Virus record (IMG/VR): IMGVR_UViG_3300034418_004553
Origin: a virus
DNA: 62,650 nt
Reading direction: 5' to 3' (one strand)
Shown here: positions 3,367 through 48,095 of the stretch, piece after piece
How positions within the stretch are numbered: position 1 is the stretch's first letter
How the letters are laid out: every line of letters begins with the position of its first letter
Made by a program: the position numbers and the translations under genes
The notes under the pieces: model-generated
What the model was told of the DNA's origin: nothing
The model's input: the letters and a program-made list of their open reading frames with translations, nothing else
The model's database searches: none

Positions 3367-3477
3367 TTAATATCTTTTTCTTTTGTTTCTAATTTGTTCT
3401 AATTTATCTAATAGCTTTATAGCTATGTCTACACTGATCTCGTCAGCGTAATATAGGTCGTATATTAATCTTCTCAT
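3367..3477 (-). CDS. Small hypothetical protein (36 aa, below the ORF-track cutoff)
   Basis: Manual translation MRRLIYDLYYADEISVDIAIKLLDKLEQIRNKRKRY. ATGA overlap with the ligase stop. Fills the gap exactly. Confidence 0.4.
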   Translation of the reverse strand: MRRLIYDLYYADEISVDIAIKLLDKLEQIRNKRKRY

Positions 3478-9127: not shown

Positions 9128-9189
9128 AAATCGAAACTGAGGCAAAGCCAAAGGCGGGGCCCGGTAAACTATATGCACTTTTCCTGGCA

Positions 9190-9746: not shown

Positions 9747-9780
9747 TACTATATATATATAACATACAACATAATTAATT

Positions 9781-10242: not shown

Positions 10243-10294
10243 ACAACGTAAAGGATTTACCTTTACACCATATATAACCTAAAACCCAATAAAT

Positions 10295-10585: not shown

Positions 10586-10597
10586 AAAATAAAAATC

Positions 10598-10888: not shown

Positions 10889-10923
10889 TCCAAACAAACC
10901 AATATAATTTAATTTAATACAAT

Positions 10924-30300: not shown

Positions 30301-33300
30301 GGCTAGTTCGGGTGCATTTCCATACGGTATATCTTTTGCTGAAGATATTAATGGCAACGAGGCTTTAGGCTCTACTTTTGTTTTACCTAGTGACTCAGGC
30401 GACTCGCTACACCCAACTGAGTGGTCTTATCATACCCCAGCCTACGATTGGACTAGCGACTATGTATCTGCTGATGATATAGATGATAACCCTATACAAG
30501 CTATTAACAATCACTTAGGTACTATACTCGGTGGTGGTGGTGTTTCTGGTTTTTGGCAGTCTATAGATAATGCTAATTGCTTTTTTATTGATCAAGCTAC
30601 TGCATACTCTTGGGACGGTTACAACAGGCCTGGTCAAATGGGTATTGACGACGACTTCTATTCTATAGGTGGTTTAGCGAGTAACTATTCTGAAGGTGGT
30701 ATTACTTTCGGTGGAGTTGTAAATACAGTGGCTAACACTCCTGGTAGCTCCTCTTCTAATGCTGAGCATAGAGGCCAACCAAGTAGAGGTATATGGACAG
30801 ATGGTGTTTACTCTTATATTGATATATCGTGGGTTGGTGCTAATCCGGGGTATAACACGCCAGGTGCGGATAATCAAAACTTCAACCACCTGCTTCAAAA
30901 CGATCAACAAAGCCAAGACGCTTGGGAGTTTATACAAGAGCTGGTTACGCCTAACACTACATTTAGGTTCAGTAGAGATCCAGACGCACAAGAATACACT
31001 GTTCAAGGCACATACGGATATGGTGGTTCTTCCACTACAACTATAGATTATAGTAATCCTAATTTTTATGCTAATGGAACAACCAATTATACAGGTGTTT
31101 TTGGCATAAGAAACTTCAGAACACTCTCTACTCTTTACAGTAATAAAGATCAGTTTAGACGTGAAAATATGCGTCAGCGCTGGACAATAAAAGTTTTTCC
31201 AGCAATTGGCGACACGGCACGTGGATATAACCCTGTTAAAGGTACTAAGCCACCAACTTTAGGAGGTCCAATCAGTTCGGAAGATGGCTACAGACGAGCT
31301 TTACATCATGACTTTAGTGACTTTGATACAATACAAATACTAGAGCCTATCAGCAGTTTAACTGGCCAAGATGACACGTTTACTGAAAACCCAGCGGTTT
31401 GGGAGATAGAACCTAGAGAGTCTGTTGAACTCGATATTTACTACCAAGCTTCACCAAAGATACCAATTGTACTAGACAACTCAACTAACGAAGAGCTTCT
31501 GCCTATTGGATCTACATTTGTTTTACCAGCGCAAGAAGCTACTCAAACCATTGACACTATACCTGAAACAACACACACGATTACGGGTTGGGACGAGCAA
31601 ACTATTACGTTCACACCAGCGCTAACTCAAGGTTATCAGTTTATAGAAAACCAAGTTGTGAGGTTTAACAAGTATAATAACTACTCGCTAGACCTTAGGC
31701 TAGACATACAAGCCTCTTCTTCTGCTGGTGGTACGACGCTGAAATTAAGTGGTGGCCCGTCAGAGGAATTAGTATCTCTACAAACACCTTATCAAACACA
31801 TTACCTAGACTGGAGTAACTGCTGGTGCTTTGGTAATGGAGTTGAGTCGGACAGAGTCAGAGACATGTTCAATGATCCTCAAATGGATAACGGTGTTAAA
31901 GCATCAACTGTGTTAGCAGATCCATCTTTACTAGTAGAAGAGAGACGTAAGCACGGTTTAATTTGGTCTGGTATATACAATGGTAATAGCGGTATCAATG
32001 AGACTAATCAGTTTATTCAAGCTGAACCTATAACGAAAGATATCAATCCGGTATATGGTAGTATACAACGACTACTTAACAGAGAGACTAGATTAGTTAT
32101 GTTCTGTGAAGACAAGGTGCTTAGAGCGGTTACAAACAAAGATGCGTTATATAATGCTGATGGTAATCCTCAGCTTGTGTCTAGCAACGCTGTTGTTGGT
32201 GATGTAACTCCGTATGCTGGTAGATACGGTATCGGTAGAAACCCTGAATCACTAGCTGTTACTCCTAGCTCTTCGTACTTTACAGACGTTATTAGAGGTA
32301 AGGTCTTAGCTTTGTCAAACTCAGGTGACGGTGTAAGAGAGATATCGGCGGTAGGTATGAAAGATTATTTCGCTGATTACATGGCTGAATACGTGGGTAC
32401 AGCAAGAGGTAGTTACGACTCTCGAAAGAAAGAGTATAATATTACTATAAACAAAAAATACGAAAACTACCAAGCGCAACCTCACGAGCAGACTACAGTA
32501 TCTTACAGTGAGTACTCAAAAGGTTGGATAAGTTTTAAGTCGTATTATCCTGATACAGGTGTAAGCTTAAATAATAAATACTATACGTTTAAAAACGGTT
32601 TAATTTGGGAACATCACTACGAGCAAGACGCAGGTACATCAAATTCTCAAAATCAATTTTATGGTACTCAATACAAGTCTGACGTAACCGCTGTATTTAA
32701 TGAGATGTCTGAATCTGTTAAAGGTTTCTCAACTATTAAGTACGAAGGCTCAAAATCAGCCGTTCCAGTATTCCAGTCTCTTAATAACCAAAACTATTTT
32801 AACGGAGACTACAGCACTAACAACGGTTTAGTAGACACTGATAATGTAAATGACGGTGAGTACTACAATATATTCGGTAAAAACGAAAGCCCACTTGGTT
32901 GGTACGTTGATAATCTAGAAACAAATCTTCAAACATGCGGTGAGCTTTATTTCAAGAATAAGGAAGGTAAATATTATGCATATCCTACTGGAGAAACTAC
33001 AGCTTTAACCAACTTAGATACTAGAGAGTTTTCTGTTCAAGGTATTGGCCAAGCTAGTATCGTCCACGGCGATAACACCGTAGGTAACCAAGCTACACTA
33101 ACGTTTATCAATAACATAAGTTCGTCAGAATCAGGTATGGATGATACTGATGGAAGCCCACAAGCTGTAGGTATAACTCGATGGACAGTTTCAAGCGCTA
33201 CTTATTCAGCTACTGTTGGAACAGCTATTGGATCTAGTCAAAGTGTAGAGATGATAATTAGTCCTTTTTATGACGGTGTGTATACTGGTCACCCAGTCAC

Positions 33301-35658: not shown

Positions 35659-36438
35659 ATGCCCTTTCCAGTAACACCTATGATGGTTGGCCAAGGTTTA
35701 AAAGCCGTGGGAGGAGTCGTACAACTCGTAGACGGAGCCATCAAAGCCAAAGAAGCTAAGCGAAAAGCTGAAGAGGCTGAGAGAGAAATGGAAAAGCAGA
35801 AGAATCTTTTTGCTAGTTTAGATACTAGTAATCCATACCTTAATATGGAGAACACAATGGAAGATCTTACTGTTAACCAGAAAGAAGCTCAGTTCATGGC
35901 TCAACAATCACAGCAATCACAAGCTAATATTTTACAGCAGATGCGTGGCGCTGCTGGAGGCTCGGGTATTGCAGCGTTAGCTCAAACGCTAGCTAACCAA
36001 GGAGCTCTTGAATCTCAGAAAGCCGCAGCGTCTATTGGTGCTCAAGAAGCAGCTAACAGGCAGTTAAGAGCTCAAGAAGCTAGTAGAATACAAGATTTAG
36101 AGCGTGAAGGTGACGTATTAAGTAGACAAGCTGAAGCCGATAAGGTTGGTACATTACTGGGTATGGCTGCTGAAGATGCTGCTGCGCAAAGAGACGCTCA
36201 ACAACAATTTAGAACTCAAGCTATACAAGGTTTAGGTTCGGCTATACAAGGTGGTATTGGTATTGCTGGTGAGTTTGGTGGTAGTGAATCTCTTACAGAT
36301 GTTACTAATCTCAACCAAGCACCACTAGAAGACCCTTTGGCTAGAGCAAATCAGTTGCAAGAAGATTCTATGAAACGGCTACAAGGCTTTGACCTGCGAA
36401 CCCAACTCCTTAATATTAATCCCCGCAAAACTGATTAA
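35659..36438 (+). CDS. Q/A-rich putative internal virion protein
   Basis: 259 aa, low-complexity Q/A/G coiled composition. Precedes the 3081-aa ORF. Confidence 0.45.
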   Translation: MPFPVTPMMVGQGLKAVGGVVQLVDGAIKAKEAKRKAEEAEREMEKQKNLFASLDTSNPYLNMENTMEDLTVNQKEAQFMAQQSQQSQANILQQMRGAAGGSGIAALAQTLANQGALESQKAAASIGAQEAANRQLRAQEASRIQDLEREGDVLSRQAEADKVGTLLGMAAEDAAAQRDAQQQFRTQAIQGLGSAIQGGIGIAGEFGGSESLTDVTNLNQAPLEDPLARANQLQEDSMKRLQGFDLRTQLLNINPRKTD

Positions 36439-36441
36439 GAC

Positions 36442-37530
36442 ATGGCAGAAACAACAAAATCATTAGACTACTCTGGCGGTAGCATGCTAGACAGATATGC
36501 TGCGGCTAGGGAAAAACAAGCTACTGGATCCGCAAGCGTGGATGTCGGTGGTATAATTTCTGGTGTTGGAGAGATGGTCAGCCAAGAAGCTCAGATTAAA
36601 AAAGATACTGAAGACGCAGCTTTAGCAAACTGGGATAAAGGCTTTGACTCTATGGGTGATCGAGGTTCATGGGCATCACCACAATTATTCGATCAGTTCC
36701 AAGATTTAGAGTCTACATTTAAAGACCAGTACGTGGCTGCAGTTAAAAGCGGTGATAAAAAGTTACAACAAAGCTTACTAACGCAGCAAGGTAATAGAGC
36801 TTCGTCTTTACAAGCTTGGACAGAGACAATGGAGACTGCGTCGCAGATTAATAACGGCCCAGGTTGGGGACATGTTGTAAACGGAAACGACGAACATAAA
36901 GCCCTACTTGAGGCATTAGCTAAAAACGATGGATCAGCAAAGCCTGTAGTTGGCGAGGGCGGAGAGCTTATGTTTGAGTTTAACGGTAAGCAATATTCAA
37001 GACGCGATGTTGACGATATAGTAGCTAAAGGAACGTTCCCTTCTTCTATGAAAAACGACTTTCTTAATGGCGCTGCTAATCAACTAAACGCAGGGCTTCA
37101 AGGTGGTTACTTTGATCAAGAGTTGACTTATCAAACAAACCTTAATAGCTTAAGCGATGATAACATGTCTTCATACATACACGACCCAGTCACTGGCGCT
37201 ACATCGTTCGCCGAAGATATTAAAAAGTTAAAAGGATCTACATTTAGTATAGCGGTAGAAAAAGATAGTGCTTTAGATCCTAGTGGCGATGGTAAATTTA
37301 CAGCAGCAGACTTTAAGGTAGAAAATGCTGACATTAATAAGATGTTAGAGATGATCGAAAGCGATCCTAAAATAGGTAAGCCTATAATCGCTGAATACTT
37401 GACACTCAAGCAAAAGGCTAACTTTGATAGAGGTGAAACTGAGTACAAAGAAAGACAAAAAGCAAGTGATCCTACATATGGCATGACTACTGAGCAGAGA
37501 CTAGAGTACTACAAAACGGTTAAAAAATAA
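36442..37530 (+). CDS. Putative internal virion protein
   Basis: 362-aa ORF. Called on position only. Confidence 0.45.
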   Translation: MAETTKSLDYSGGSMLDRYAAAREKQATGSASVDVGGIISGVGEMVSQEAQIKKDTEDAALANWDKGFDSMGDRGSWASPQLFDQFQDLESTFKDQYVAAVKSGDKKLQQSLLTQQGNRASSLQAWTETMETASQINNGPGWGHVVNGNDEHKALLEALAKNDGSAKPVVGEGGELMFEFNGKQYSRRDVDDIVAKGTFPSSMKNDFLNGAANQLNAGLQGGYFDQELTYQTNLNSLSDDNMSSYIHDPVTGATSFAEDIKKLKGSTFSIAVEKDSALDPSGDGKFTAADFKVENADINKMLEMIESDPKIGKPIIAEYLTLKQKANFDRGETEYKERQKASDPTYGMTTEQRLEYYKTVKK

Positions 37531-37534
37531 CTAG

Positions 37535-40500
37535 ATGAACGAAGAGTTGTTGAAAATAATTGAGGCTATGGAGGCTGCTAATGAACCAGCAGAGTCTATA
37601 GCAGCTGTAGTACAGCAATACATGGCGGAGCAAGGCACGGATACGGCAGATACACCTGCTGCTGACGTTATGTCAGTTAGCCAGCGTGATGTAGATGCTG
37701 GTATAAAACCAGAGTCGTATGTTAACTCTACTTACTGGAACACCTTAAGTGACGAAGTAGATAGATCCCAATATTATGATTCTGAAGGCAACTTTATAGC
37801 TAATGATTCTCTTTTGTCCGACCCTCACTATAACCAAGCGTTACAGGAAGAGCAAACTCGTGAAACTATTGTGCGAGATTCTTCTGTAACTGGATTAACA
37901 GAGACTGAAAAGAGGTACGATATTACAGAGGAAGACGAAAAAATTATTGAGTCTGAGGCTCTAAATGTGTACAACAATTACGCATCTAACAGTGAAGAGC
38001 TGGCTAATATACCAGAAGACAACGTCGGTAGTGGTGACATGTTTGCTGGTATGATGAATGACATCGTAAGCGGTAGACTTAACGGTGTTTTACCTAGGAA
38101 GTTTAGACCTGGTGGTAATGAATACGGTAAATTTTCAGCAAATCCTCGAGCGGTGTATGAAGCTTGGCTTAGAGAAAACACCAAAGACTCTGAATCTGTT
38201 CTCATGCAGAACATCAATCGCTTTGGTAAGTATCAAGATCTTGTTCTTAAATTTGCAAACGAAGGCTACCAAACAGATACTCAAATAAGAGAACAATCAG
38301 AAGCTAACGAAATAAAGTACTTTAATACTAGACTACGTTTAGCTTTAAATAAATATTTAGAAGAAGCTTATGGTTCTGCTGACTCTGCTGAAGCTGAAGA
38401 GTTTTTAAAAAACGCTGGTAACATCACATTAAAAGATATTAAAGACGATGTATACGGTACGAGAGGCAAGGGTAAGAGAAAACTTAAAGATATTTATGAC
38501 GCTTTAGAAGGTACTGACGAGCTAAGATCAGAAATATTAGCTCAAGAAAACAGGGGTATAAGATCTAATCTTATTAAAAATAGAGCTAGTGAAATAGCTA
38601 AATCAACTGTAGAAGGCGGAACTTATGAAGGAAGTGCGCTAGCAGGTACGGGTGCTATTAACTCTATATTTGGTAAAACAGAACAGCAGTTAGCTATAAT
38701 AGACGCCTCTGAAGAAGATTTTGCACAAATACAAGATGACGCTAAACAAAAAGCTATTGAAGGAGATTTAGTCCATCAACAGCTGAATGTCGTTAATGAT
38801 AGGTTAAGTAGTTTAGCTTCTGAAATAAAAGATTTTGGAGACCCTAAAGAGTACATTAAATCTATTAAAGACAAATATGATTTAAATACAGAGCAAGGCA
38901 TTAACGACGCTAATAAGGAGATACAGGATTTTATTGGTAAGTACACTAATTTAATAGACGAGTACAACGTAGCTCTAGATTCTTCTAAATCTTTGCATGA
39001 TTCAGTAATAAAGGTCGGTGCTGAATTAGAGCAATTAAGTATTAGAGAGCAAGATCTTAATGCTTTTACTAATCAAATAAGTAAAAATCATAGAGTAGCT
39101 ACTCAAATGGCTCTATCTTTCCACAACGGTATAGTTAGTCTTGGTGAAGGTGGTTTAGAGCTTGCTTACATGGTTAACCCTTTGGGTGCGCTAAGTGATG
39201 AACTTGTCGACCTGTACGGTGAAGATTCTTTTGTAGATGCGGTTATTGAAACCGCAAGGTTCGCTACAGCTTTACCTACTGGTGGTATATCTTTATATTC
39301 AGGTGAACGCAGAGACAAGATCAGAGGGTCTATAGATGGTTACAAAAACCATGTTAACTCTCTAGTTGTAGAGCCTCCAAAATTCGATGACATAGATGGT
39401 TTTGGTAGTGCCGTTGAGTGGGCGTTGATTACAGGTGCTAGTCAAGCTCCGCAACTAGCTTTGCTCGCGGCTACTGGAGGTACCGCTGGTTTAATTATGA
39501 TGGGCGGTATATCTGCAGGTAATAAATTTAGCGAGATGGACTCCGCTAGAGATTTATACAGAAGAACCGGTGGTATGTATGGGCAGAACCATAGTTTTGG
39601 TGAAATGTATGCGGCGTCTCTTGCTTCGGGTACTATAGAAGCTTTATCTGAAAAAGTAACGTTAAACTTACTTAAAGGTACAGGAGGTATTAGCTCTAAG
39701 TTTTTATTCGGTGATATAGGTAAAAGAGCTGCTACTACTTTCTTGAGAAAAGACGTACTTAAAGTAGGTTTAAGAAGCACAGCAGCTGCTGGTTTAGATT
39801 TATTTGACGAAGGTGCTTCTGAAGCGCTAGCTCAAATGGGTGGTAACTACATTGATAGACTAGCCGGTGACAAAGAGATTGGTATATTCGACGGTGTTGA
39901 TGAAGCGTTTGTTACAGGTGCTTTAATAGGCGGTACGTTATCTGCACCAACCTTGTTTAGAAACACTTACCGCGCTTTCCAAAGCGTTGAGGCATCTGAC
40001 GTTCTAGATTCTAATAGAGCTAGAATACAAGAGCTAAACTCTATTATAAACGATCCAAACTCTACAGAAGAAACTGTAAGACAAGCTGAGGAAAACATAC
40101 AAAGTTTAGTCGCGGAAAATGCAGAGCTAATAGCGTTTGATTTAAAACGCGTTGACTCGCTAAGCAAAGAGCAAAAAGCAGAGCTACTTAAAATAGACGA
40201 GTCTCAAAGAAACTTAGAGGTAAGGCTTTCTGAAATTGCAGCTTCTGAAGACTTGACTAAAGAGCAGAAAGAAAAGATTTATGCTGAAATGAACATCGGC
40301 TATAACAAAAACCTTGCTCGTAAAAATCAAATACTAAAAAGCATACCTACAGATGAAGTTCTTAAAAACCACGAGAACGACATCAAACGCATAGAAGAAG
40401 AGAGTGCTAGGCTAGTTGCTGAAGGTGGACCTGCTATTAATGTAACTAGATCTAATGGGAAGAACGATGCTGATATTGCTAGTCAGTTTGAAGAGTGGAA

Positions 40501-43500
40501 GAACAGCGCTAAAAAAAGAGGTAACGTAAAGATAGCTGCGTCAGAAGACGGCACGCGAATTTACGGTGCTATGGTGCCTATATTAGACAATAGTGGTAAA
40601 GTTGTTAGCTACGAGATGTTTTTTAATGATAAGAACATCTACGAAGATGGTGTCACTACTACTGGAACACACGAGCTTTTACATGCAGCTATATTCAACA
40701 CTATACGAGCTAACCCTGTGTTAAGAAATAGATTTGGAGACGCTATTAATAGAATACTAGATGGTCCAGGCGTAAAGATATCTAAAAAAGCTCAAGAACA
40801 GTTAGATTTATTAAACCAATACAGCAAAGAACAAAGAGGCGAAGAGTTGTTTGCTAAGGTTTCTGAACTAATGGTATCTGGTGATATAACAATTGACGGT
40901 GGTGCTGTGGGTAAGTTTAAAGATTTACTACGTAGAACGTCTATGCAAAATACAGATACTGACATTGTATTCGACGGAGACGTTGACGTTAGAAACTTTT
41001 TGAAAGACTACTCAAGATCTAGAAAAAAAGGCATAGCTGACAAACGTATAACAAGCTTGTTTACTAAAGGAGCAAAAGGACGTATAGTAGAGCAACCTAA
41101 AACTAGAGAAGAAGCTAGAAGAGTTGTTGAAGGAAGACTAGAAGAAGCTCTAGAAGAAAGCTTTATGACTACACTGTCTGCTAGTATTAGATCTAATCCA
41201 GACCTACGTCAAGAGTTTGATCAGTTTACTAAAAACGAAGATGGAACTCCTAAGTATAAAACTCAACAGGAGTGGGAGAGCAGTCAAGACTACGTAGATG
41301 CATACCAAAAGATAGTAGAAAGTAACCTTCTAGATGGTTTAATTCAGACTAAGATGATAGAGCGCGGGGTGCCACCAGCTGCTCTTAGAGATTTTACTAG
41401 AAAGGTTAAAGAAAATATAGGTTTAAGATTCTTACCTACAGTAGATAAGAAAACAGGTAGAGTAAAACCTGATTCTGGTTATAGAATTTCAAATGATAGT
41501 TTGTTTGGCTGGTTAACAGGTGTTGCTGGTGGAGCTGGTCAATCCGTTATATACAGAGCCAAAGGTGACGTTATGAACGAGTATAAAGAAAGCGGTAATC
41601 TTGAAACTGTTTCTCTTGATGCTCCTATGGGTGAAACAACTACGTTTGAAGCTACTATAGAAGCTGAAACTGATGCGCTCATGCAGCAGCTTGAAGAAGC
41701 TGATTTAAGTAGAACTCGCGTAGAGCGTGAAGCTAGAAAACCAAAGAAAGTTGTTAATGAGCTAAACATTGACAGTGACGGTAAAGCCGCTATAAACAAA
41801 GCTGTAGCAGATGCAGCCGTTGATATAGCTGGATTACAGTATAAAGACGTTAAAAAGCTTGGTAACTCTGTTGATGCGCCACTGTATAAAACACTACAAA
41901 TCGTATCAGAAAAGTTCGGCGTAAATCCTAAAAACGTTATAAAATCTGCTAACTTAAACACTAAGCAGCGAAAAGCGGCGCAGCAGTTTATTAACGATAA
42001 CGTAGAGTTTTTATTAGAAATGTTACCTGATGGTGAGACTAGAAGCGGAGAAGCTACTGGTGTACCTAGAGTGTTGTTAAATAATTTCTACGAAAAAGGT
42101 GAGAGATTAAAATATAAAGACGGAGCTACAGCTGCAGGTAAATTTACACAGCAAAAGCGAACTGATATAACACCCGAGCAGTTTAAAGAAGCTTTCGGTA
42201 TTAGACCAGATGGCACTCTAGATAACAATAGAAAATACGACAGCGCTATAAATGCTTTAGTTAATCAAGCTACTATGCTAGCCAACAATCAGGCTCTACG
42301 CGAACACGCTATGAAAGAAGGTACTGCATCAGAAGCAGTAGTTGCTAAATTAGGTGAAGGTAAAGCTGAGGTAATGTTTAGTGTAAAGGTAAGAGATAAC
42401 GTTAAGAACACTTTCGATCAATTATACCCTGATCTAATAACAGCTGTAGCAGCATCTAATACTGGCGATATAGACTCTATAAGAGTAGCTGTTGAGTCTG
42501 TTTATGGTAATGTACTTAGTACGTCTGAAATTAAAAGGCTAGTAAATGAAATATACGATCAAGCCGACGAGTACAACACTATAAACCAAAACCTTAAAGG
42601 TGTCGGTGTTGATGTGCCTGTGAGCTTAGAACAGTTTTTACAAGCTAAATACGAAAGCAATAACAGTGAAAAAGGTATATTAAAAGCATTAGAAGATAAG
42701 TTACCAAAAGACGAATTAGGCAAAACAACAAGGATAGGCACTCATTTCTTAGATCTTGTAAGAATAAACAAGCAGCGAGCTGTACCAGGTTTGTTTGTCG
42801 CTGAAGCTAGAGCACTATTAGACAAAAAAGGAAATAGAATTTATTCGGATAAGCAAATAGCTGAAATGCTTATAGCTCACGCTATGCCTATGTTTGCTGG
42901 CTCGGGTAGAATAGCTGATCGTAGATTTATTGTAGAAAAAAGAGAGCCAGACGGAGAAAGAGTTGTTGTTAAAGACCCCAATTGGAAACCTACTAAGAGA
43001 AATAAAAAAGGCCAAGAGGTACCTCAGAAAAATAGAAAACAAGCTTTTCAAAGCGTACCTGATTTTATCGCTGTACTTAACACTCTTGGTTTAGGTAAAA
43101 TAGAAAAAGTTGGAAAAGGTTATACTCTTGATGGAGCTCCGTTAGATACTACGTTAATACCTGAAACATCAGAAGCTAGACTGTCAAGATCTAAGACAGA
43201 AAAGGCAAAAGCTGATTTATTTGAGAAAGGTAAAAAACAGGCTAAAGACGCAAGAGTTGTTACTAAAATAATATTAGACTCTCTATACGCTAAGGCTAAT
43301 GACCCTAGTAGTAGTTACGACTATGCTGATTTTGCTATGACTTTAACTAGTCTTGGCTCGAATATGCAAGCGCCTATGAGACGAGCTGCTTTGTTCGAAT
43401 ATTTTATGGAAGGTGTTGAAGATGTAGTAGCTAATAGAGGTGATGCAAGCATTGGATCTGTTACTGAGTTTGAGCACTTAAAACCTCAAGAAGAAGCTAT

Positions 43501-46500
43501 TGGAGAGATTATACACTCTTACTTAACTACTGGTGAACTTGATATGCGTATATTTGAAGGCGGTGGACCTTATAGACCATACAAGACTGGCGTTATTAGC
43601 AAGAGCATGGATAATGCGGTGACAGACGCTGGTCATAAGTTTATTTCTCCGAGATTAGGAAGAGGTGACAGCAGACAATACTCGTATGAAGCTATTGGCG
43701 ATAGTAGAATTAGACCTCTTAGAAGCATTGATCCAGCTAAAAAAGGTACTAACAAAGAGTTTATTGGTAGAGAGTGGGTTCAAATGAACGACGCTGTGTC
43801 AAGAGGTGATGGTACTGTAATTAAAGATATGAGAGTGCTGCAAGGTATATTTGGAAATATATCTTTCTCGAAGCGACCTGCTAAAAACAAAGGGGCTAGC
43901 GTACTTGATTTTGATGACACATTAGCTACAACTAACTCTAGCGTGTTGTTTACTGCGCCTGACGGAACTAAAGGTAAGTTAAACGCAGAAGAGTATGCTA
44001 GAGATTACGTTGAGCTGCTTGGTCAAGGCTATGAGTTTGATTTCTCAGAGTTCAACAAGGTTGTTGACGGAGCGCCTGGACCTTTGCTTGATAAAGCTAA
44101 AAAATTAGCGAAGAAGTTTGGTACTGATAACATGTTTATCTTGACCGCTAGAGCACCACAGGCTCAAGAAGCTATATTCGAGTTTATGAAATCTCAAAGC
44201 TTAGAAATACCTATTGACAACATCGTAGGCTTAGGTAATTCTACTGGTCAAGCTAAAGCTAACTGGATCGCTGAGAACTTAATAAAGGAAGGATACAATG
44301 ATATGTACTTCGCGGATGATGCGTTACAAAACGTAGAGGCCGTTAAAGCTATGTTTGAGCTGTTTGATGTTAAGAGCAAAGTCCAGCAAGCTAAGGCTGA
44401 GTTTAGTAGAAGAGCGCCTAAGAAAATGGATGGTATCATCGATGAAGGCGCTGCTGATCTTGATTCAGACTTTAATATTATACTAGAGCAAACTAAAGGT
44501 GTAGCTAGATTCAAGCAGTTCTCTGCTGGTAAAGCTAGACAACGTGGTAAAAACAAAGGTAGATTTAAATTCTTTATACCACCTTCAGCCGATGATTTTG
44601 CTGGTTTACTATATAGCTTCATGGGTAAAGGTGAGATTGGTAACAAGCACCACGCCTTCTTCAAGAAGCATTTGTTCGATCCGTTTAGTAAAGGTGTTAG
44701 ACTTTTAAATAGAGTAAACCAAATAGCAGCTAATGATTTAAAGAACTTGCGTAAGTCTTTCCCTGATGTTCGCAGGAGCCTTAAAGATAAGTTGCCAGGG
44801 CTAGAGTACACTACTGAAGATGCTATAAGAGTATACAACTGGAACAAGCAAGGATTTGATGTTCCAGGTTTATCACAGACAGATCTAAACGCTATTGTTA
44901 AAGCTGTTGAAGGTAACGCTAGCTTGAAAGCATTTGCTGATGGTGTTAGTAGAATTATTGTTGGAGAAGCTATTATGCCAGACGACTCTTGGTTAGGTGG
45001 TACTATAGCATCTGATATTAACGATTCTCTTGAAAACGCTAGATCGACATACTTGCAAGAGTGGATAGATAATAAAAACGCTATATTCACTGAAGCTAAC
45101 ATGAATAAAATTGAAGCTGTTTATGGCTCTAATTTTAGAGAGGCTTTAGAAGATGTGCTATTCCGTATGGAAAACGGTGGTAACAGATCTCAAGGTCAAG
45201 GTAGACTAATGAACACCTTTACTAACTGGATACACGGATCTATTGGTACTACTATGTTCTTCAATGCAAGATCAGCTATGTTGCAGATGATTTCAAATGT
45301 TAACTTTATTAACTGGAGTGACAACAATATGTTAAAAGCAGCAGCTGCGTTTGCAAATCAAAAACAATACTGGTCTGATGTTGCTATGATATTTAACTCT
45401 GACTTCTTAAAGCAGAGAAGAGGTAGAATACAAACAGATGTTAACGCGGCAGAGCTACTAGCAGAGATACGTGATTCTAAAAACCCAATGAAGAAAGCTA
45501 CGGCTTACCTTCTTCAATTAGGTTTTACACCGACGCAAATTGCGGATAGCTTTGCTATTGCAACTGGTGGTGCTACGTTCTATAGAAACAGAGTTGATTC
45601 GTATATCAAAGAAGGTATGTCTAAGAAAGACGCTGAAACAAAAGCGTTTGAAGATATGATGGAGATCGCTGAGGAAACTCAGCAGTCTACAAGAGAAGAT
45701 AGAATATCTCAACAGCAGGCTTCACCTCTTGGTAAGTTTATACTGGCTTTCCAAAACACACCTATGCAGTACAATCGTTTGATTAAGAAAGCTGCTCAGG
45801 ACTTAGTTAACGGAAGAGGTGATGCTACAGCTAATGTCTCTAAGATCGTTTACTACGGTGCTATACAGAACATGATATTCTACGGGCTTCAGCAAGCTTT
45901 GTTCGCAGCAATGTTCGGTGACGACGAAGAAGATAAGATCGATGACAAGCAGAAAGAGCGTATGATTAACGGTATGCTTGATACTGTATTAAGAGGTTCC
46001 GGTATTGGCGGTGCTGTTGTATCTACAACAAAGAACGTTATCTTGAAGTTCATGGAGCAAGAAGAGAAAGCTAAAGATGATAAGTTCTTCACTGAGCCAG
46101 ATCACGCTTACACTGTTATCGAGGCACTCAATATATCTCCACCGATCGGTATTAAAGCTAGAAAGCTATACAGCGCTTTGCAGTCTTGGGAGTTTAACAG
46201 AGAAGTTATCGATTACATGGACAAGACTGATATCGATAACCCAGTTTACGATGCGGTATTTAGCGCTACTGAGGCTGTTACAAACCTACCTTTATCAAGA
46301 CTGTATAGCAAATACCAGAACTTGAAAGAAGCTGCTAACTCAGATCACGAAACGTGGAAGAGAGTAGCCATGCTACTGGGTTGGAGTAAGTGGAGCTTTG
46401 GTATTAAGAACCAAGACGTGATGTCTGCTAAGAACGAGATTAAAGAAATCAAAGCTGAAGAAAGAGAAGAGCGTCAAGAGCAGAAAAAGCTCGAGCGACA

Positions 46501-46780
46501 GATAGCTAAAGACGAAGAAGAACGTCAAGTTATTGAAGATAACAAGCTTGATCAAGACGAAAAGAGAGAAGAAGGAGATGCAGAAGTTCAATGCGCTGCT
46601 GTTAGTAAATCCGGTAAGCGATGTTCTAATATTGCTTTAGATGGTAAAAGCTTTTGCACGGTGCACGATGAAGTTCCTCAACAAGAAAACGAAGTTCAAT
46701 GCTCACACACAAAGAGTAACGGTGAGCGCTGTAAAATGAAAACTAAAAACAAATCAGGAAAATGTTACTACCACGATTAA
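37535..46780 (+). CDS. Giant polyvalent protein (3081 aa): zincin HExxH, HAD-phosphatase-like domain, twin C-terminal Zn-ribbons
   Basis: HELLH at 40670..40684. HAD motif I VLDFDDTLATT (43901..), motif II MFILTARAP, motif IV YFADDALQNV (about 44305..44345). Two copies of EVQC-x6-G-x-RC-x9/10-C-x2-HD (46581..46777). Confidence 0.65.
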   Translation: MNEELLKIIEAMEAANEPAESIAAVVQQYMAEQGTDTADTPAADVMSVSQRDVDAGIKPESYVNSTYWNTLSDEVDRSQYYDSEGNFIANDSLLSDPHYNQALQEEQTRETIVRDSSVTGLTETEKRYDITEEDEKIIESEALNVYNNYASNSEELANIPEDNVGSGDMFAGMMNDIVSGRLNGVLPRKFRPGGNEYGKFSANPRAVYEAWLRENTKDSESVLMQNINRFGKYQDLVLKFANEGYQTDTQIREQSEANEIKYFNTRLRLALNKYLEEAYGSADSAEAEEFLKNAGNITLKDIKDDVYGTRGKGKRKLKDIYDALEGTDELRSEILAQENRGIRSNLIKNRASEIAKSTVEGGTYEGSALAGTGAINSIFGKTEQQLAIIDASEEDFAQIQDDAKQKAIEGDLVHQQLNVVNDRLSSLASEIKDFGDPKEYIKSIKDKYDLNTEQGINDANKEIQDFIGKYTNLIDEYNVALDSSKSLHDSVIKVGAELEQLSIREQDLNAFTNQISKNHRVATQMALSFHNGIVSLGEGGLELAYMVNPLGALSDELVDLYGEDSFVDAVIETARFATALPTGGISLYSGERRDKIRGSIDGYKNHVNSLVVEPPKFDDIDGFGSAVEWALITGASQAPQLALLAATGGTAGLIMMGGISAGNKFSEMDSARDLYRRTGGMYGQNHSFGEMYAASLASGTIEALSEKVTLNLLKGTGGISSKFLFGDIGKRAATTFLRKDVLKVGLRSTAAAGLDLFDEGASEALAQMGGNYIDRLAGDKEIGIFDGVDEAFVTGALIGGTLSAPTLFRNTYRAFQSVEASDVLDSNRARIQELNSIINDPNSTEETVRQAEENIQSLVAENAELIAFDLKRVDSLSKEQKAELLKIDESQRNLEVRLSEIAASEDLTKEQKEKIYAEMNIGYNKNLARKNQILKSIPTDEVLKNHENDIKRIEEESARLVAEGGPAINVTRSNGKNDADIASQFEEWKNSAKKRGNVKIAASEDGTRIYGAMVPILDNSGKVVSYEMFFNDKNIYEDGVTTTGTHELLHAAIFNTIRANPVLRNRFGDAINRILDGPGVKISKKAQEQLDLLNQYSKEQRGEELFAKVSELMVSGDITIDGGAVGKFKDLLRRTSMQNTDTDIVFDGDVDVRNFLKDYSRSRKKGIADKRITSLFTKGAKGRIVEQPKTREEARRVVEGRLEEALEESFMTTLSASIRSNPDLRQEFDQFTKNEDGTPKYKTQQEWESSQDYVDAYQKIVESNLLDGLIQTKMIERGVPPAALRDFTRKVKENIGLRFLPTVDKKTGRVKPDSGYRISNDSLFGWLTGVAGGAGQSVIYRAKGDVMNEYKESGNLETVSLDAPMGETTTFEATIEAETDALMQQLEEADLSRTRVEREARKPKKVVNELNIDSDGKAAINKAVADAAVDIAGLQYKDVKKLGNSVDAPLYKTLQIVSEKFGVNPKNVIKSANLNTKQRKAAQQFINDNVEFLLEMLPDGETRSGEATGVPRVLLNNFYEKGERLKYKDGATAAGKFTQQKRTDITPEQFKEAFGIRPDGTLDNNRKYDSAINALVNQATMLANNQALREHAMKEGTASEAVVAKLGEGKAEVMFSVKVRDNVKNTFDQLYPDLITAVAASNTGDIDSIRVAVESVYGNVLSTSEIKRLVNEIYDQADEYNTINQNLKGVGVDVPVSLEQFLQAKYESNNSEKGILKALEDKLPKDELGKTTRIGTHFLDLVRINKQRAVPGLFVAEARALLDKKGNRIYSDKQIAEMLIAHAMPMFAGSGRIADRRFIVEKREPDGERVVVKDPNWKPTKRNKKGQEVPQKNRKQAFQSVPDFIAVLNTLGLGKIEKVGKGYTLDGAPLDTTLIPETSEARLSRSKTEKAKADLFEKGKKQAKDARVVTKIILDSLYAKANDPSSSYDYADFAMTLTSLGSNMQAPMRRAALFEYFMEGVEDVVANRGDASIGSVTEFEHLKPQEEAIGEIIHSYLTTGELDMRIFEGGGPYRPYKTGVISKSMDNAVTDAGHKFISPRLGRGDSRQYSYEAIGDSRIRPLRSIDPAKKGTNKEFIGREWVQMNDAVSRGDGTVIKDMRVLQGIFGNISFSKRPAKNKGASVLDFDDTLATTNSSVLFTAPDGTKGKLNAEEYARDYVELLGQGYEFDFSEFNKVVDGAPGPLLDKAKKLAKKFGTDNMFILTARAPQAQEAIFEFMKSQSLEIPIDNIVGLGNSTGQAKANWIAENLIKEGYNDMYFADDALQNVEAVKAMFELFDVKSKVQQAKAEFSRRAPKKMDGIIDEGAADLDSDFNIILEQTKGVARFKQFSAGKARQRGKNKGRFKFFIPPSADDFAGLLYSFMGKGEIGNKHHAFFKKHLFDPFSKGVRLLNRVNQIAANDLKNLRKSFPDVRRSLKDKLPGLEYTTEDAIRVYNWNKQGFDVPGLSQTDLNAIVKAVEGNASLKAFADGVSRIIVGEAIMPDDSWLGGTIASDINDSLENARSTYLQEWIDNKNAIFTEANMNKIEAVYGSNFREALEDVLFRMENGGNRSQGQGRLMNTFTNWIHGSIGTTMFFNARSAMLQMISNVNFINWSDNNMLKAAAAFANQKQYWSDVAMIFNSDFLKQRRGRIQTDVNAAELLAEIRDSKNPMKKATAYLLQLGFTPTQIADSFAIATGGATFYRNRVDSYIKEGMSKKDAETKAFEDMMEIAEETQQSTREDRISQQQASPLGKFILAFQNTPMQYNRLIKKAAQDLVNGRGDATANVSKIVYYGAIQNMIFYGLQQALFAAMFGDDEEDKIDDKQKERMINGMLDTVLRGSGIGGAVVSTTKNVILKFMEQEEKAKDDKFFTEPDHAYTVIEALNISPPIGIKARKLYSALQSWEFNREVIDYMDKTDIDNPVYDAVFSATEAVTNLPLSRLYSKYQNLKEAANSDHETWKRVAMLLGWSKWSFGIKNQDVMSAKNEIKEIKAEEREERQEQKKLERQIAKDEEERQVIEDNKLDQDEKREEGDAEVQCAAVSKSGKRCSNIALDGKSFCTVHDEVPQQENEVQCSHTKSNGERCKMKTKNKSGKCYYHD

Positions 46781-47805: not shown

Positions 47806-47808
47806 GAT

Positions 47809-48093
47809 ATGGCAAAACAAATAGGTGAGGATACTAAAGTAACATTAGACCTCAAAACAATCGGTATGGCATCAGCAGGTTTAGCTGCTTTAATTGGTAT
47901 GTACTTTACGCTACAAGCTGATATAGCTTTAGCAAAAGAATTACCTGAACCACTTCCACCAGACGTAACTCGCATGGAGTTTGACATGAAAGATAAGCTA
48001 GTACGTCAGACCATTATGACAACGCAGGAGGACGTATCAGAACTTAAAGAAGATCTTGATCGTATCGAAGAAAAAATTGACAAACTAAAATAG
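47809..48093 (+). CDS. Single-pass membrane protein with C-terminal coiled coil
   Basis: 94 aa. TM IGMASAGLAALIGMYFTL, then DVSELKEDLDRIEEKIDKLK. Confidence 0.5.
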   Translation: MAKQIGEDTKVTLDLKTIGMASAGLAALIGMYFTLQADIALAKELPEPLPPDVTRMEFDMKDKLVRQTIMTTQEDVSELKEDLDRIEEKIDKLK

Positions 48094-48095
48094 TT

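What the first reader, a model, noticed from the sequence alone, without database searches (positions are those of the whole stretch)
37535..46780. 3081-aa polyvalent protein combining a zincin HExxH site, a HAD-phosphatase-like domain and twin C-terminal zinc ribbons
The largest ORF sits where podovirus-type phages encode ejected internal core proteins, after two Q/A-rich small proteins. Three modules are recognisable by eye:
- TGTHELLHAAIF, a zincin motif (40670..40684).
- A complete HAD signature: DFDDT motif I at 43907.., MFILTARAP motif II and FADDALQNV motif IV at about 44311...
- Two tandem copies of EVQC-x6-G-x-RC-x9/10-C-x2-HD at the extreme C-terminus (46581..46777), preceded by a K/E-rich coiled coil.

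Giant multi-domain polyvalent proteins delivered with the DNA are known to carry effectors against host defences. A HAD phosphatase/nucleotidase module inside such a protein is, as far as I know, not a standard component. Most of the remaining ~2500 residues are unassigned.
Basis: partly seen in the sequence, partly recalled or inferred. Interest (0 to 1): 0.7.

Follow-up and report, generated by a model that had tools for sequence, protein, structure and literature searches.

The report
Giant cysteine-free injected phage protein
This 3081-residue gene is real and most likely encodes a giant multi-tool protein that a marine Bacteroidota phage packs in its head and injects with its DNA. It carries a conserved metal-protease site, a phosphatase not previously reported in such proteins, and two zinc fingers.

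Summary
All three motifs sit at the stated coordinates in one intact ORF (37535..46780).

- **Family.** The protein belongs to a large unannotated family: 3928 clusters at 50% identity. Members are 2000-3900 aa and come from aquatic podophages related to Pervagoviridae and Elemovirus, which have a crass-type muzzle tail.
- **HAD.** All four motifs are invariant across homologues. The AlphaFold model (pLDDT 84) matches HAD enzymes, best T4 Pnkp 3'-phosphatase, with marginal E-values.
- **Zincin.** H1046, E1047, H1050 and E1104 are the only invariant columns among 27 sequences of 13-23% identity. That is a gluzincin signature; the fold was not tested.
- **Zinc ribbons.** They hold all six cysteines. 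The other 3019 residues have none (about 35 expected).
- **Ejection signature.** The same lack of cysteine marks proven ejected proteins: T7 gp15/gp16 and N4 vRNAP. Residues 616-934 are homologous to Cellulophaga phage gp101, which mass spectrometry found in virions.
- **C-terminal core.** It is a confident all-alpha domain with no PDB match. It resembles the C-terminal parts of annotated "polyvalent" phage proteins.
- **Kinase variants.** Some relatives replace the HAD with a P-loop kinase, or nest the kinase inside it.

Verdict: a new variant of the known giant ejected polyvalent proteins. The HAD substrate is unresolved; nucleic-acid end healing is favoured.

The parts
37535..46780 (+). Whole gene: 3081-aa giant cargo/ejection (polyvalent) protein
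   Evidence: Intact ORF. The identical product is found on at least 21 contigs. 52 homologues by word-indexed search and 3928 clusters by full HMM scan.
37535..39379 (+). N-terminal variable region (aa 1-615), unassigned
   Evidence: 5-13% column identity to family members. No Pfam or PHROG hit.
39380..40336 (+). Hydrophobic, Gly/Ala-rich module (aa 616-934). It contains the only strong TM-like segment (aa 625-661, nt 39407-39517). Candidate membrane-insertion/ejectosome part and orthology anchor to virion proteins of isolates.
   Evidence: Kyte-Doolittle peak of 1.56-1.67 at aa 641. BLASTP to phi38:1 gp101 aa 351-696: 26% identity, E 1e-15. BLASTP to Elemovirus gp18 aa 528-820: E 8e-6. phi40:1 gp101 is an MS/MS-verified structural protein.
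40415..41074 (+). Gluzincin-like metallopeptidase module (aa 961-1180): HELLH at nt 40670-40684, third ligand E1104 at nt 40844-40846
   Evidence: H1046, E1047, H1050 and E1104 are the only invariant columns in 27 sequences of 13-23% identity. HExxH is present mid-protein in 47/52 homologues and in 121/121 full-length representatives. Only weak zincin profile hits.
43022..43831 (+). Conserved 'EHxxP' module of unknown function (aa 1830-2099; E1980-H1981 at nt 43472-43477)
   Evidence: In alignment A4, E is conserved in 29 of 36 rows and H in 26 of 36 rows. Alignment A5. No Pfam or PDB match.
43856..44404 (+). HAD-superfamily phosphatase domain (aa 2108-2290). Motif I DFDDT at nt 43907-43921. 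Motif II (T2204 in MFILTARAP) at nt 44132-44158. Motif III K2241 at nt 44255-44257. Motif IV DD in FADDALQNV at nt 44309-44335.
   Evidence: Catalytic motifs invariant in 18 homologues. AF2 pLDDT 83.9 with a Rossmann-like beta/alpha order. Foldseek top hit is T4 Pnkp 3'-phosphatase 5uj0, followed by other HAD enzymes. TIGR01664 and HAD Pfam families hit below threshold. Present in 118+7 of 171 full-length relatives.
44420..46414 (+). Family-defining all-alpha C-terminal core (aa 2296-2960)
   Evidence: 35-60% column identity across the family. AF2 pLDDT 81.2, pTM 0.78, all helices. No PDB relative: best E 0.33, TM about 0.1. BFVD hits at E 1e-12 to 1e-4 and TMq 0.5-0.69 to C-terminal pieces of proteins annotated MuF, PolyVal ART or large polyvalent protein-associated domain.
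46415..46579 (+). K/E-rich, probably coiled-coil linker (aa 2961-3015)
   Evidence: Read from the sequence. Not conserved in the family.
46583..46669 (+). CCCH zinc ribbon 1 (C3020, C3030, C3041, H3044)
   Evidence: Sub-threshold Pfam DUF5763 and phrog_16145 hits. One or two such ribbons sit at the C-terminus of 53/121 representatives.
46691..46777 (+). CCCH zinc ribbon 2 (C3056, C3066, C3077, H3080)
27353..35206 (+). Context: 2617-aa muzzle/nozzle-type tail protein upstream
   Evidence: Pfam crAss_MUZ_C at 29.9 bits, above the gathering threshold of 27. Homologous to phi38:1 gp097 at E 1e-43, whose phi40:1 orthologue is MS/MS-verified.
35659..37530 (+). Context: two small cysteine-free proteins (259 and 362 aa) between the muzzle gene and the giant gene; probable co-ejected cargo proteins
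   Evidence: 0 Cys in each. The 259-aa protein is Q/A-rich and weakly similar to phi38:1 gp099. Their position matches crAss001 gp45/gp46.

Best explanation
The gene encodes a giant virion 'cargo' or ejection protein of the polyvalent type, from a roughly 62.7-kb podophage of aquatic Bacteroidota. The phage is related to Pervagoviridae (Callevirus) and Elemovirus and has a crassvirus-like muzzle tail.

**Proposed course of events.**
1. The protein is made late and packed inside the capsid.
2. At infection it is threaded, at least partly unfolded, through the portal and tail, together with the two small cysteine-free proteins encoded just upstream.
3. The hydrophobic Gly/Ala-rich module (aa 616-934) engages the envelope and helps build the conduit.
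4. The C-terminal two thirds reach the cytoplasm and refold there.
5. The HExxH...E metallopeptidase cuts the polyprotein into working pieces, or cuts a host target.
6. The HAD domain acts as a Mg-dependent phosphomonoesterase. Its most likely job (about 40%) is a Pnkp-like polynucleotide 3'-phosphatase that heals broken DNA or RNA ends as soon as the genome enters.
7. The all-alpha core is the conserved packaging or scaffold module shared with other polyvalent proteins.
8. The two terminal CCCH ribbons bind zinc, and probably nucleic acid, only once in the reducing cytoplasm.

**Shown:** gene integrity, family, module boundaries, conservation of the catalytic residues, the predicted HAD fold, the cysteine pattern, the synteny, and homology of one module to an MS-verified virion protein.

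**Inferred:** packaging of this particular protein, the order of exit, self-cleavage, the HAD substrate, and the role of the core and the ribbons.
For: **Context and synteny.**
- Gene order is terminase, portal, capsid, muzzle-like 2617-aa protein, small proteins, then the giant gene at the end of the virion block.
- The order is the same in homologue contigs, crAss001 gp44-47, Elemovirus gp22-gp18 and phi38:1 gp097-101.
- crAss001 gp45-47, gp49 and gp50 are MS-detected cargo proteins (PMC10172136).

**Link to a virion protein.** Query aa 616-934 matches phi38:1 gp101 at E 1e-15. The 99.9%-identical phi40:1 gp101 is annotated as a structural protein from MS/MS.

**Cysteine pattern.**
- 0 Cys in aa 1-3019, against 34.8 expected from the rest of the proteome (P 6e-16).
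- 64/121 family representatives have no Cys at all; the others have mostly 3, 6 or 7, about three per CCCH ribbon.
- Proven ejected proteins show the same pattern: T7 gp15 0/747, T7 gp16 0/1318, N4 vRNAP 0/3500, N4 gp51 and gp52 0.
- crAss001 and phi14:2 cargo proteins have 0-3 Cys.

**Zincin.** HExxH plus E are the only invariant columns in 27 sequences. A zincin is already reported in phi14:2 gp65 (10.1101/2020.03.07.982082) and in N4 vRNAP and polyvalent proteins, with proposed autoprocessing (PMC5512222).

**HAD.** TIGR01664 DNA 3'-phosphatase is the commonest NCBIfam hit (5/18 members).

**Kinase in the same slot.** Relatives place a P-loop kinase (AAA_33/Zeta_toxin) in the HAD slot, or nest it in the HAD flap. 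This is the Pnkp domain pair.

**Ligase.** The phage encodes an ATP-dependent ligase at 3474..4319.

**Core.** Its model resembles the C-terminal parts of annotated polyvalent, MuF and ART proteins and of 'internal virion protein D'.
Against: - There is no direct proteomic evidence for this protein.
- It has no detectable homology to crAss001 gp47, phi14:2 gp65/67 or N4 vRNAP beyond the motifs.
- Syntenic giants in the nearest sequenced phages are mostly non-homologous.
- No Pfam polyvalent (LPD, MPTase-PolyVal, MuF) model hits.
- The zincin fold is untested and profile hits are weak.
- Foldseek E-values for the HAD model are marginal (1e-3) and other HAD classes follow closely. These include the Legionella effector Lem4, a HAD; it is a tyrosine phosphatase from my own knowledge, not checked here.
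- Pfam DUF2608 is the commonest Pfam hit (14/18 members).
- The kinase profile matches zeta toxin/PezT (4e-6) better than polynucleotide kinases (1e-4 to 1e-2). That favours a small-molecule substrate.
- The query itself has no kinase.
Confidence: 0.68

Rival explanations
1. Same packaged protein, but the HAD/kinase slot works on small molecules rather than on nucleic-acid ends. The kinase variants would be zeta-toxin-like kinases that phosphorylate UDP-GlcNAc, NAD or nucleotides. The HAD would be a sugar-nucleotide or nucleotide phosphatase. Possible roles are local weakening of cell-wall synthesis during entry, or removal of a host immune or metabolic nucleotide.
For: The kinase profile's best solved relatives are zeta toxin 1gvn (4.4e-6) and PezT (3.6e-5). 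A close BFVD homologue is named UDP-N-acetylglucosamine kinase. Zeta-like kinases are already listed among polyvalent and MuF-fused domains (PMC5512222). Many small-molecule HAD phosphatases appear among the Foldseek hits.
Against: A kinase nested inside a phosphatase acting on one small molecule would be a futile pair, whereas on polynucleotide ends the two are complementary (inference). The best HAD structural hit and the commonest NCBIfam hit are polynucleotide/DNA 3'-phosphatases. The predicted HAD has only a hairpin plus one helix as cap. From general knowledge of HAD enzymes, that is typical of members acting on large substrates.
Confidence: 0.22
2. The HAD is a protein phosphatase effector, like the HAD of the translocated Legionella effector Lem4 or CTD-type HAD phosphatases. 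It would reprogram host proteins on entry.
For: The Lem4 HAD domain (6cgk, 6cgj) is among the Foldseek hits at ranks 10 and 15. Pfam DUF2608 is hit by 14/18 members, best E 2.3e-5. Small-cap HADs often take macromolecular substrates (general knowledge).
Against: In the one member whose hit coordinates were shown, the DUF2608 match covers only about 30 residues around motif IV. The Lem4 hits score below Pnkp. Co-occurrence with a P-loop kinase of the zeta/Pnk class, not a protein kinase, does not suggest protein substrates.
Confidence: 0.07
3. The protein is essentially a structural ejectosome or scaffold protein. On this view its enzyme-like motifs are relics or only metal- and fold-stabilising sites.
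For: Most of the sequence is alpha-helical or unassigned. 39/171 relatives lack both HAD and kinase, so the cassette is dispensable for the family's core role.
Against: Every catalytic residue of the HAD and of the HExxH...E site is invariant, while the surrounding sequence has diverged to 13-59% identity. That argues for selection on catalysis.
Confidence: 0.06
4. DFDDT is a degenerate DFDxD catalytic motif of a crass-type virion RNA polymerase, and the giant protein is the phage's injected RNAP.
For: Crass-like phages carry a giant virion RNAP with a DFDxD motif (10.1101/2020.03.07.982082): DFDID in phi14:2 gp66 and DFDVD in crAss001 gp50. The gene sits in the comparable genome block.
Against: In homologues the invariant residues are D, D and T, and the fourth position varies (D, E, L, K). 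The region folds as a Rossmann-like HAD with motifs II-IV. There is no similarity to gp66 or gp50 and no PDB hit to RNAPs. The phage encodes a sigma-70-like protein, which implies use of host RNAP.
Confidence: 0.01

Closest known systems
Coliphage N4 virion RNA polymerase (gp50, 3500 aa) as a polyvalent ejected protein
   Same: A giant single polypeptide encoded next to the virion genes, packaged and ejected. It is completely cysteine-free (0/3500). It has a single mid-to-late HExxH, classed as an MPTase in PMC5512222.
   Different: The N4 protein is an RNA polymerase, whereas the query has no polymerase module. There is no significant sequence similarity. The query adds a HAD phosphatase, an unrelated all-alpha core and terminal zinc ribbons.
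Crassvirus cargo proteins: crAss001 gp47 and Cellulophaga phage phi14:2 gp65 (zincin-containing, RNAP-associated)
   Same: The same position after muzzle gene and small cargo proteins. Virion-packaged by MS. Nearly cysteine-free with one HExxH each. A zincin is noted in the literature. The upstream tail protein shares the crAss_MUZ_C domain.
   Different: No detectable homology by BLAST or HMM. Those proteins accompany a DFDxD RNAP, which this phage lacks. No HAD is reported or found in them.
Cellulophaga phages phi38:1/phi40:1 gp101 (Pervagoviridae), an MS/MS-verified 1691-aa structural protein
   Same: Positional orthologue: last gene of the virion block. Homologous over query aa 616-934 (E 1e-15). 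0 Cys.
   Different: Half the length. It has no HExxH, no HAD, no core and no ribbons.
Large polyvalent proteins of phages and conjugative elements (Iyer et al. 2017, PMC5512222)
   Same: Many effector-type domains in one polypeptide, a zincin peptidase as the recurrent processing module, and a virion-gene context. A zeta-like kinase is listed there among the domains. The query's core model resembles the C-terminal parts of proteins annotated PolyVal ART, LPD or MuF.
   Different: None of the Pfam LPD, MPTase-PolyVal or MuF models hit. A HAD phosphatase is not in that catalogue: 'phosphatase' occurs 0 times.
T4 polynucleotide kinase-phosphatase (Pnkp) and DNA 3'-phosphatases (TIGR01664)
   Same: DxDxT acyl-phosphatase chemistry with S/T, K and DD motifs. 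Best structural match is 5uj0. TIGR01664 is the commonest NCBIfam hit. Relatives pair the HAD with a P-loop kinase.
   Different: Only 13-14% identity and E 1e-3. There is a roughly 33-residue longer insert between motifs I and II. The enzyme is embedded in a 3081-aa virion protein rather than free in the cytoplasm. In relatives the kinase is nested in the HAD flap rather than fused end to end, and by sequence it is nearer to zeta toxins.

Membership tests
HAD (haloacid dehalogenase-like) phosphatase superfamily | Motif I DxDx(T/V) at the end of strand 1 | tested here: met
   DFDDT at aa 2125. D, D and T are invariant in 18 homologues. The modelled strand E13-18 ends at the motif.
HAD (haloacid dehalogenase-like) phosphatase superfamily | Motif II S/T, motif III K, motif IV DD (or DxxxD) | tested here: met
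   T2204 (T/S in all), K2241 invariant, D2261-D2262 invariant.
HAD (haloacid dehalogenase-like) phosphatase superfamily | Rossmann-like alpha/beta core with a flap hairpin after motif I | tested here: met
   AF2 pLDDT 83.9 with alternating strand/helix order and a hairpin at E29-33/E39-43. Most of the leading Foldseek PDB hits are HAD enzymes: prob 0.9-1.0, but E only 1e-3 to 1e-1.
HAD (haloacid dehalogenase-like) phosphatase superfamily | Curated profile score above threshold | tested here: not met
   PF12710 HAD scores 16.8 bits against a cut-off of 27. DUF2608, Hydrolase and TIGR HAD models are all sub-threshold.
HAD (haloacid dehalogenase-like) phosphatase superfamily | Mg-dependent phosphoryl transfer via an aspartyl-phosphate intermediate | not testable with these tools
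   Needs an enzyme assay.
Polynucleotide/DNA 3'-phosphatase branch (T4 Pnkp, PNKP, TIGR01664) | Closest sequence and structure relatives are 3'-phosphatases; pairing with a 5'-kinase | tested here: inconclusive
   5uj0 is the top Foldseek hit at E 1.4e-3. TIGR01664 hits 5/18 members, best 0.0014. A kinase is nested in or replaces the HAD in 14/171 relatives. However, that kinase is nearer to zeta toxin than to Pnk.
Zincin / gluzincin metallopeptidases | HExxH plus a downstream Glu as third zinc ligand | tested here: met
   H1046, E1047, H1050 and E1104 are the only invariant columns in 27 sequences of 13-23% identity.
Zincin / gluzincin metallopeptidases | Zincin fold (mixed sheet plus active-site helix) | not tested
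Profile hits are only weak: Peptidase_M78 in 2 members, Zn_peptidase in 1, snapalysin 1c7k at E 0.33.
MPTase-PolyVal / LPD / MuF Pfam families of polyvalent proteins | Hit to the curated models | tested here: not met
   Pfam scan of the whole protein and of module members gave none.
Large polyvalent proteins (functional class) | At least 2 unrelated effector-type domains in one polypeptide, encoded with virion genes, with a processing peptidase | tested here: met
   Zincin, HAD, ribbons and an unknown EHxxP module in one ORF at the end of the virion block. The core is structurally similar to annotated polyvalent proteins.
Podophage ejection / cargo proteins | Presence in virions and ejection into the host | tested here: inconclusive
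   Indirect only: a homologous module in MS/MS-verified phi40:1 gp101 and synteny.
Podophage ejection / cargo proteins | Near absence of cysteine (empirical signature seen here in T7 gp15/16, N4 gp50-52 and crass cargo proteins) | tested here: met
   0 Cys in aa 1-3019, P 6e-16. Comparators.
Crass-type virion RNA polymerase | DFDxD catalytic motif in a double-psi beta-barrel | tested here: not met
   The third Asp is not conserved and T is invariant. The fold is HAD. No similarity to gp66 or gp50.
DUF5763-type zinc ribbon | Profile hit and Cys/His ligand pattern | tested here: inconclusive
   The CCCH pattern occurs twice. PF19067 scores 16.2 bits against a cut-off of 26.3. No PDB relative.

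The most novel reading that the evidence does not exclude
The HAD cassette would be a pre-packaged nucleic-acid end-healing enzyme (Pnkp-like), injected together with the genome. In relatives it is the HAD with a P-loop kinase nested in its flap. The phage would then arrive with repair activity already in hand against host nucleases that leave 3'-phosphate and 5'-OH ends, such as anticodon nucleases, CRISPR-associated RNases and DNA-nicking defences. The phage-encoded ligase would do the sealing. This would be the first virion-delivered repair or counter-defence phosphatase. The kinase-inside-HAD arrangement appears to be a new bifunctional architecture; I know of no precedent, but did not search for one.
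Probability: 0.3. Interest if true: 0.8.

Novelty: new variant of a known kind. Interest (0 to 1): 0.58.

Why it matters
Giant proteins injected with phage DNA decide the first minutes of infection, yet outside N4, T7 and a few crassviruses their contents are unknown.

- This finding gives a module map for a very large unannotated family (at least 3900 clusters) from abundant aquatic Bacteroidota phages.
- It adds a phosphatase, and in relatives a nested kinase-phosphatase, to the known repertoire of injected effectors.
- It provides a testable active-site list: D2125, D2127, K2241, D2261/2262; H1046, E1047, H1050, E1104.
- It suggests a simple compositional marker for finding ejected proteins in uncultured phages: long proteins without cysteine next to tail genes.

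Tried and rejected
- **Whole-protein searches.** Pfam, PHROGs and PDB sequence searches found nothing significant.
- **INPHARED phage genomes.** tblastn with aa 1-3000 and with aa 601-960 found no match. This was not a tool failure: the syntenic giants of the nearest phages really are non-homologous.
- **Profile searches of individual modules.**
  - Core against PDB and Pfam: nothing.
  - Zincin module against PDB and Pfam: only weak hints.
  - EHxxP module: nothing. My by-eye idea that it is an HNH-like nuclease is therefore unsupported, and I dropped it.
- **Variable modules upstream of the core** in 10 relatives that lack a HAD: no Pfam hits.
- **Homology to known cargo proteins.** HMM and BLAST against crAss001 gp45-50, phi14:2 gp65-69 and N4 vRNAP found nothing significant.
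- **RNAP reading of DFDDT:** rejected.
- **DLDSD at aa 2308** as a DxDxD motif: not conserved in homologues.
- **Third large protein search**, with the zincin profile: only 2 hits and no annotation.
- **PDB search with the ribbon pair:** no hit.
- **Literature search** for HAD domains in ejection proteins: none found.
Full report
**1. The observation**

ORF 37535..46780 on the + strand is intact, 3081 aa, and the largest in the window. Exactly this protein is called on at least 21 contigs from several metagenomes, ten index blocks with contigs of 50-200 kb. It is therefore not an assembly artefact.

- HELLH at aa 1046 (nt 40670-40684).
- DFDDT at aa 2125 (nt 43907).
- MFILTARAP at aa 2200 (nt 44132).
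- FADDALQNV at aa 2259 (nt 44309).
- Two EVQC...C...C-x2-HD units at nt 46583-46669 and 46691-46777, after a K/E-rich stretch.

The protein has only 25 His, so 0.016 HExxH are expected by chance. DxDxT alone is not rare (0.8 expected) and needs the conservation evidence below.

**2. A very large, unannotated family**

- Pfam, PHROGs and PDB sequence searches of the whole protein give nothing significant. tblastn against 50,697 phage genomes finds nothing.
- The word-indexed search of 5.8 billion proteins finds 52 giants of 1850-3984 aa.
- A full HMM scan with the C-terminal core profile finds 3928 clusters at 50% identity (1739 at E<=1e-30). The core always lies near the C-terminus of proteins mostly 2000-3900 aa long.
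- Conservation along the query is sharply uneven. It is 35-60% column identity over aa 2121-2960 (HAD plus core). Weak islands lie at 641-800, 1041-1160, 1481-1600 and 1881-2000. The rest is near noise.

**3. The HAD domain is real**

- In 18 homologues of 34-59% identity, the invariant columns include D2125, D2127 and T2129 (motif I), K2241 (motif III) and D2261-D2262 (motif IV). The motif II residue T2204 is T or S in every sequence.
- The AlphaFold2 model of aa 2108-2310 is confident (pLDDT 83.9). It has the alternating strand/helix order of a Rossmann-like core and a beta-hairpin flap right after motif I.
- Foldseek against the PDB returns HAD enzymes for most of the leading matches. The top hit is the T4 Pnkp 3'-phosphatase domain (5uj0; prob 1.0, E 1.4e-3, TM 0.59-0.62 on the target). 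Pnkp1, GmhB, HisB-N, phosphoserine phosphatase and the Legionella Lem4 HAD follow.
- Curated profiles are all below threshold but point the same way. Among Pfam models, DUF2608 hits 14/18 members and HAD 8/18. Among NCBIfam models, TIGR01664 DNA 3'-phosphatase and HAD-SF-IIIC each hit 5/18.
- The alternative that DFDDT is a decayed crass-type RNAP DFDxD motif fails. The T is invariant and the fourth position varies. The fold is HAD. There is no similarity to phi14:2 gp66 or crAss001 gp50.

**4. The HExxH is a conserved gluzincin-type site**

- A single mid-protein HExxH is present in 47/52 homologues and in 121/121 full-length representatives.
- In an alignment of 27 members sharing only 13-23% identity, the only invariant columns are H1046, E1047, H1050 and E1104. 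That is HExxH plus a Glu 54 residues downstream.
- Profile evidence for a specific peptidase family is weak: Peptidase_M78 in 2 members, Zn_peptidase in 1, snapalysin at E 0.33.
- A zincin in a giant virion protein has precedent: phi14:2 gp65 (10.1101/2020.03.07.982082), and N4 vRNAP and polyvalent proteins, where autoprocessing is proposed (PMC5512222).

**5. Cysteines and zinc ribbons**

- All six Cys are ligands of the two C-terminal C-x9-C-x10-C-x2-H units.
- The first 3019 residues have none, against 34.8 expected from the 1.15% Cys of the other ORFs (P 6e-16).
- This is a family trait. 64/121 representatives have no Cys, and most others have 3, 6 or 7, about three per ribbon. 53/121 end in one or two CCCH ribbons. 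Overall there are 295 Cys in 343,271 residues.
- I then counted Cys in proven ejected proteins: T7 gp15 0/747, T7 gp16 0/1318, N4 vRNAP 0/3500, N4 gp51 0/644, N4 gp52 0/150. Neighbouring non-ejected virion proteins have normal values.
- MS-verified cargo proteins of crAss001 and phi14:2 have 0-3 Cys in 534-2412 residues.
- The two small ORFs just upstream of the giant gene also have 0 Cys.
- Lack of cysteine is thus an independent compositional signature of ejection.
- A review of ejection proteins does not mention it.

**6. The C-terminal core links the protein to polyvalent proteins**

- With a 36-sequence alignment, the core (aa 2296-2975) models confidently as an all-alpha domain (pLDDT 81.2, pTM 0.78).
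- It has no relative in the PDB: best E 0.33, TM about 0.1.
- In BFVD it has four close homologues. These are Virus NIOZ-UU157 and three 'uncultured virus' entries, one of them named UDP-GlcNAc kinase.
- Beyond these, about 45 remote matches (E 1e-12 to 1e-3, many with TMq 0.5-0.69, 10-16% identity) are C-terminal pieces of giant proteins of uncultured tailed phages. Their annotations include MuF C-terminal domain, PolyVal ADP-ribosyltransferase, large polyvalent protein-associated domain, nuclease, N-acetyltransferase, internal virion protein D and Tenacibaculum phage structural protein.
- The core is therefore a recurrent helical module of phage polyvalent proteins. Its own role (packaging signal, scaffold or conduit) is unknown.

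**7. Genome context and the case for packaging**

- Terminase and portal place the phage with Flavobacterium Elemovirus, Cellulophaga Callevirus (Pervagoviridae), Tenacibaculum and Maribacter phages, and MW202828.
- The 2617-aa upstream protein carries the crassvirus muzzle C-terminal domain above Pfam's threshold. It is homologous to phi38:1 gp097.
- The order muzzle, then small proteins, then a giant last gene recurs in homologue contigs, Elemovirus, MW202828, phi38:1 and crAss001 gp44-47. There gp45-47, gp49 and gp50 are cargo proteins by MS (PMC10172136).
- The syntenic giants differ greatly in sequence. Even so, query aa 616-934, the hydrophobic Gly/Ala-rich module with the one strong TM-like segment, matches phi38:1 gp101 at E 1e-15.
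- The 99.9%-identical phi40:1 gp101 is annotated as structural from MS/MS.
- The phage has a sigma-70-like gene and no RNAP. It also encodes an ATP-dependent ligase, RNR, primase-helicase, ThyA, MazG and Erf.

**8. The slot before the core is a swappable cassette**

Among 171 full-length relatives, the slot contents are as follows:

| Slot content | Relatives |
|---|---|
| HAD only | 118 |
| Neither HAD nor kinase | 39 |
| P-loop kinase in place of the HAD | 7 |
| Kinase nested inside the HAD | 7 |

- The kinase that replaces the HAD is seen, for example, in P0028 aa 1918-2070, with Pfam AAA_33 at 2e-13 and Zeta_toxin at 7e-12.
- In the nested form the kinase sits at the tip of the flap hairpin, the classical cap-insertion site. 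For example, P0174 has DFDDT at 2188 and Walker A at 2222, and the HAD resumes at 2408.
- One relative carries the HAD near its N-terminus.
- The kinase profile is closest to zeta toxin/PezT (4e-6, 4e-5). It then matches the kinase domains of C. thermocellum Pnkp, T4 Pnk and mammalian PNKP (1e-4 to 1e-2).

**9. How it most likely works**

Shown:
- A real, conserved, modular protein with intact HAD and zincin catalytic residues.
- Cysteine-free apart from the ribbons.
- Encoded at the cargo position.
- Sharing a module with a virion protein.

Inferred:
- It is packed in the head and ejected partly unfolded. The absence of Cys would avoid oxidative cross-links in the periplasm.
- The 616-934 module engages the envelope.
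- The C-terminal enzymes refold in the cytoplasm.
- The zincin processes the polyprotein.
- The ribbons fold around zinc and bind nucleic acid.

For the HAD I favour a Pnkp-like polynucleotide 3'-phosphatase (about 40%). Three weak lines converge on it: the best structural neighbour, the commonest NCBIfam hit, and the pairing with a P-loop kinase. A phage ligase is also available.

A small-molecule role with a zeta-like kinase is the main rival (about 22% overall). A protein-phosphatase role is less likely.

**10. Comparison and novelty**

- It works like the known giant ejected polyvalent proteins: N4 vRNAP, and crass gp47/gp65. It is not a detectable sequence member of any of them, nor of the Pfam LPD, MPTase-PolyVal or MuF families.
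- The polyvalent catalogue lists no phosphatase, and I found no paper describing a HAD in an ejection protein.
- I class it as a new variant of a known kind. The new elements are the HAD effector (in relatives with a nested kinase), a new helical core family, and optional CCCH ribbons.
- Interest is moderate to good. The class is expected for such phages. The family is huge and undescribed, the active sites are directly testable, and the cysteine-free signature may be of general use.

**11. What led nowhere**

See 'tried and rejected'. The main dead ends were the EHxxP module (aa 1830-2099), which stays unidentified, and the last large protein search with the zincin profile, which was uninformative.

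Noticed in passing
Related proteins P0174, P0155, P0169, P0135, P0166, P0085, P0119 (e.g. P0174 aa 2188-2552); P0028 aa 1918-2070: In 7 of 171 relatives a P-loop kinase (Walker A GGPGSGKS, NQD, DGTG, RNxxRxER) is nested inside the HAD domain at the tip of the flap hairpin. In 7 others the kinase replaces the HAD. I know of no described kinase-within-HAD architecture, though I did not search the literature for one.
   Followed up: partly
window 37535-46582 and 35659-37530; loci L005, L006, L007, L008, L013, L014: Near-total absence of cysteine is shared by this protein, its family, the two upstream small ORFs and every experimentally established ejected protein I checked: T7 gp15/16, N4 gp50/51/52, and the crAss001 and phi14:2 cargo proteins. 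Neighbouring virion proteins have normal Cys content. This may be a usable predictor of ejected proteins.
   Followed up: partly
window 43022-43831 (aa 1830-2099): A further conserved module has a near-invariant E-H-x-x-P motif (E1980, H1981) and a downstream Y..Q...K..D pattern. It is present in most of the family. No Pfam or PDB match, and function unknown.
   Followed up: partly
window 48465-50678: A 737-aa ORF has 37 Cys (5%) and a C-terminal type IX secretion sorting domain (Por_Secre_tail, E 2.6e-10). A host-style secretion signal on a phage-encoded protein is unusual.
   Followed up: no
window 46762-47805: A 347-aa ORF overlaps the giant gene's end by 19 nt. It has a signal peptide (MLLPRLSLLLTLLFSCTVLQAQ), is Y/G/F-rich and ends in F. 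This looks like an outer-membrane beta-barrel protein encoded by a phage. Two small ORFs with a hydrophobic, TM-like segment follow (47809-48093, 48096-48464).
   Followed up: no
window 10924-12495: Phage-encoded GroEL chaperonin (phrog_5725, E 5e-135). Related Elemovirus and MW202828 genomes carry GroEL plus GroES. It may be needed to fold the giant virion proteins.
   Followed up: no
window 27353-35206: A 2617-aa tail protein carries the crassvirus muzzle C-terminal domain (PF25729) at aa 1765-1877 and is homologous to phi38:1 gp097. It links Pervagoviridae/Elemovirus-like phages to the crassvirus tail design although they are not classified in Crassvirales.
   Followed up: partly
L001 (MW202828) 741-12320; L002 (Elemovirus) 38718-49802: The syntenic giant genes of the nearest sequenced phages (3859 and 3694 aa) share almost no sequence with the query or with each other. 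The Elemovirus giant shares the aa 616-934 module with the query, and each giant has its own HExxH. Module turnover at a fixed genome position is therefore very fast. Elemovirus gp18 has a DUF3293 domain instead.
   Followed up: partly
window 3474-4319, 946-1701, 53459-54277: An ATP-dependent DNA/RNA-type ligase (a possible sealing partner for an end-healing phosphatase). A sigma-70 region-4 protein, which implies host RNAP use. A PAP2-like phosphatase just below Pfam's threshold (26.2 against 27.2 bits).
   Followed up: no
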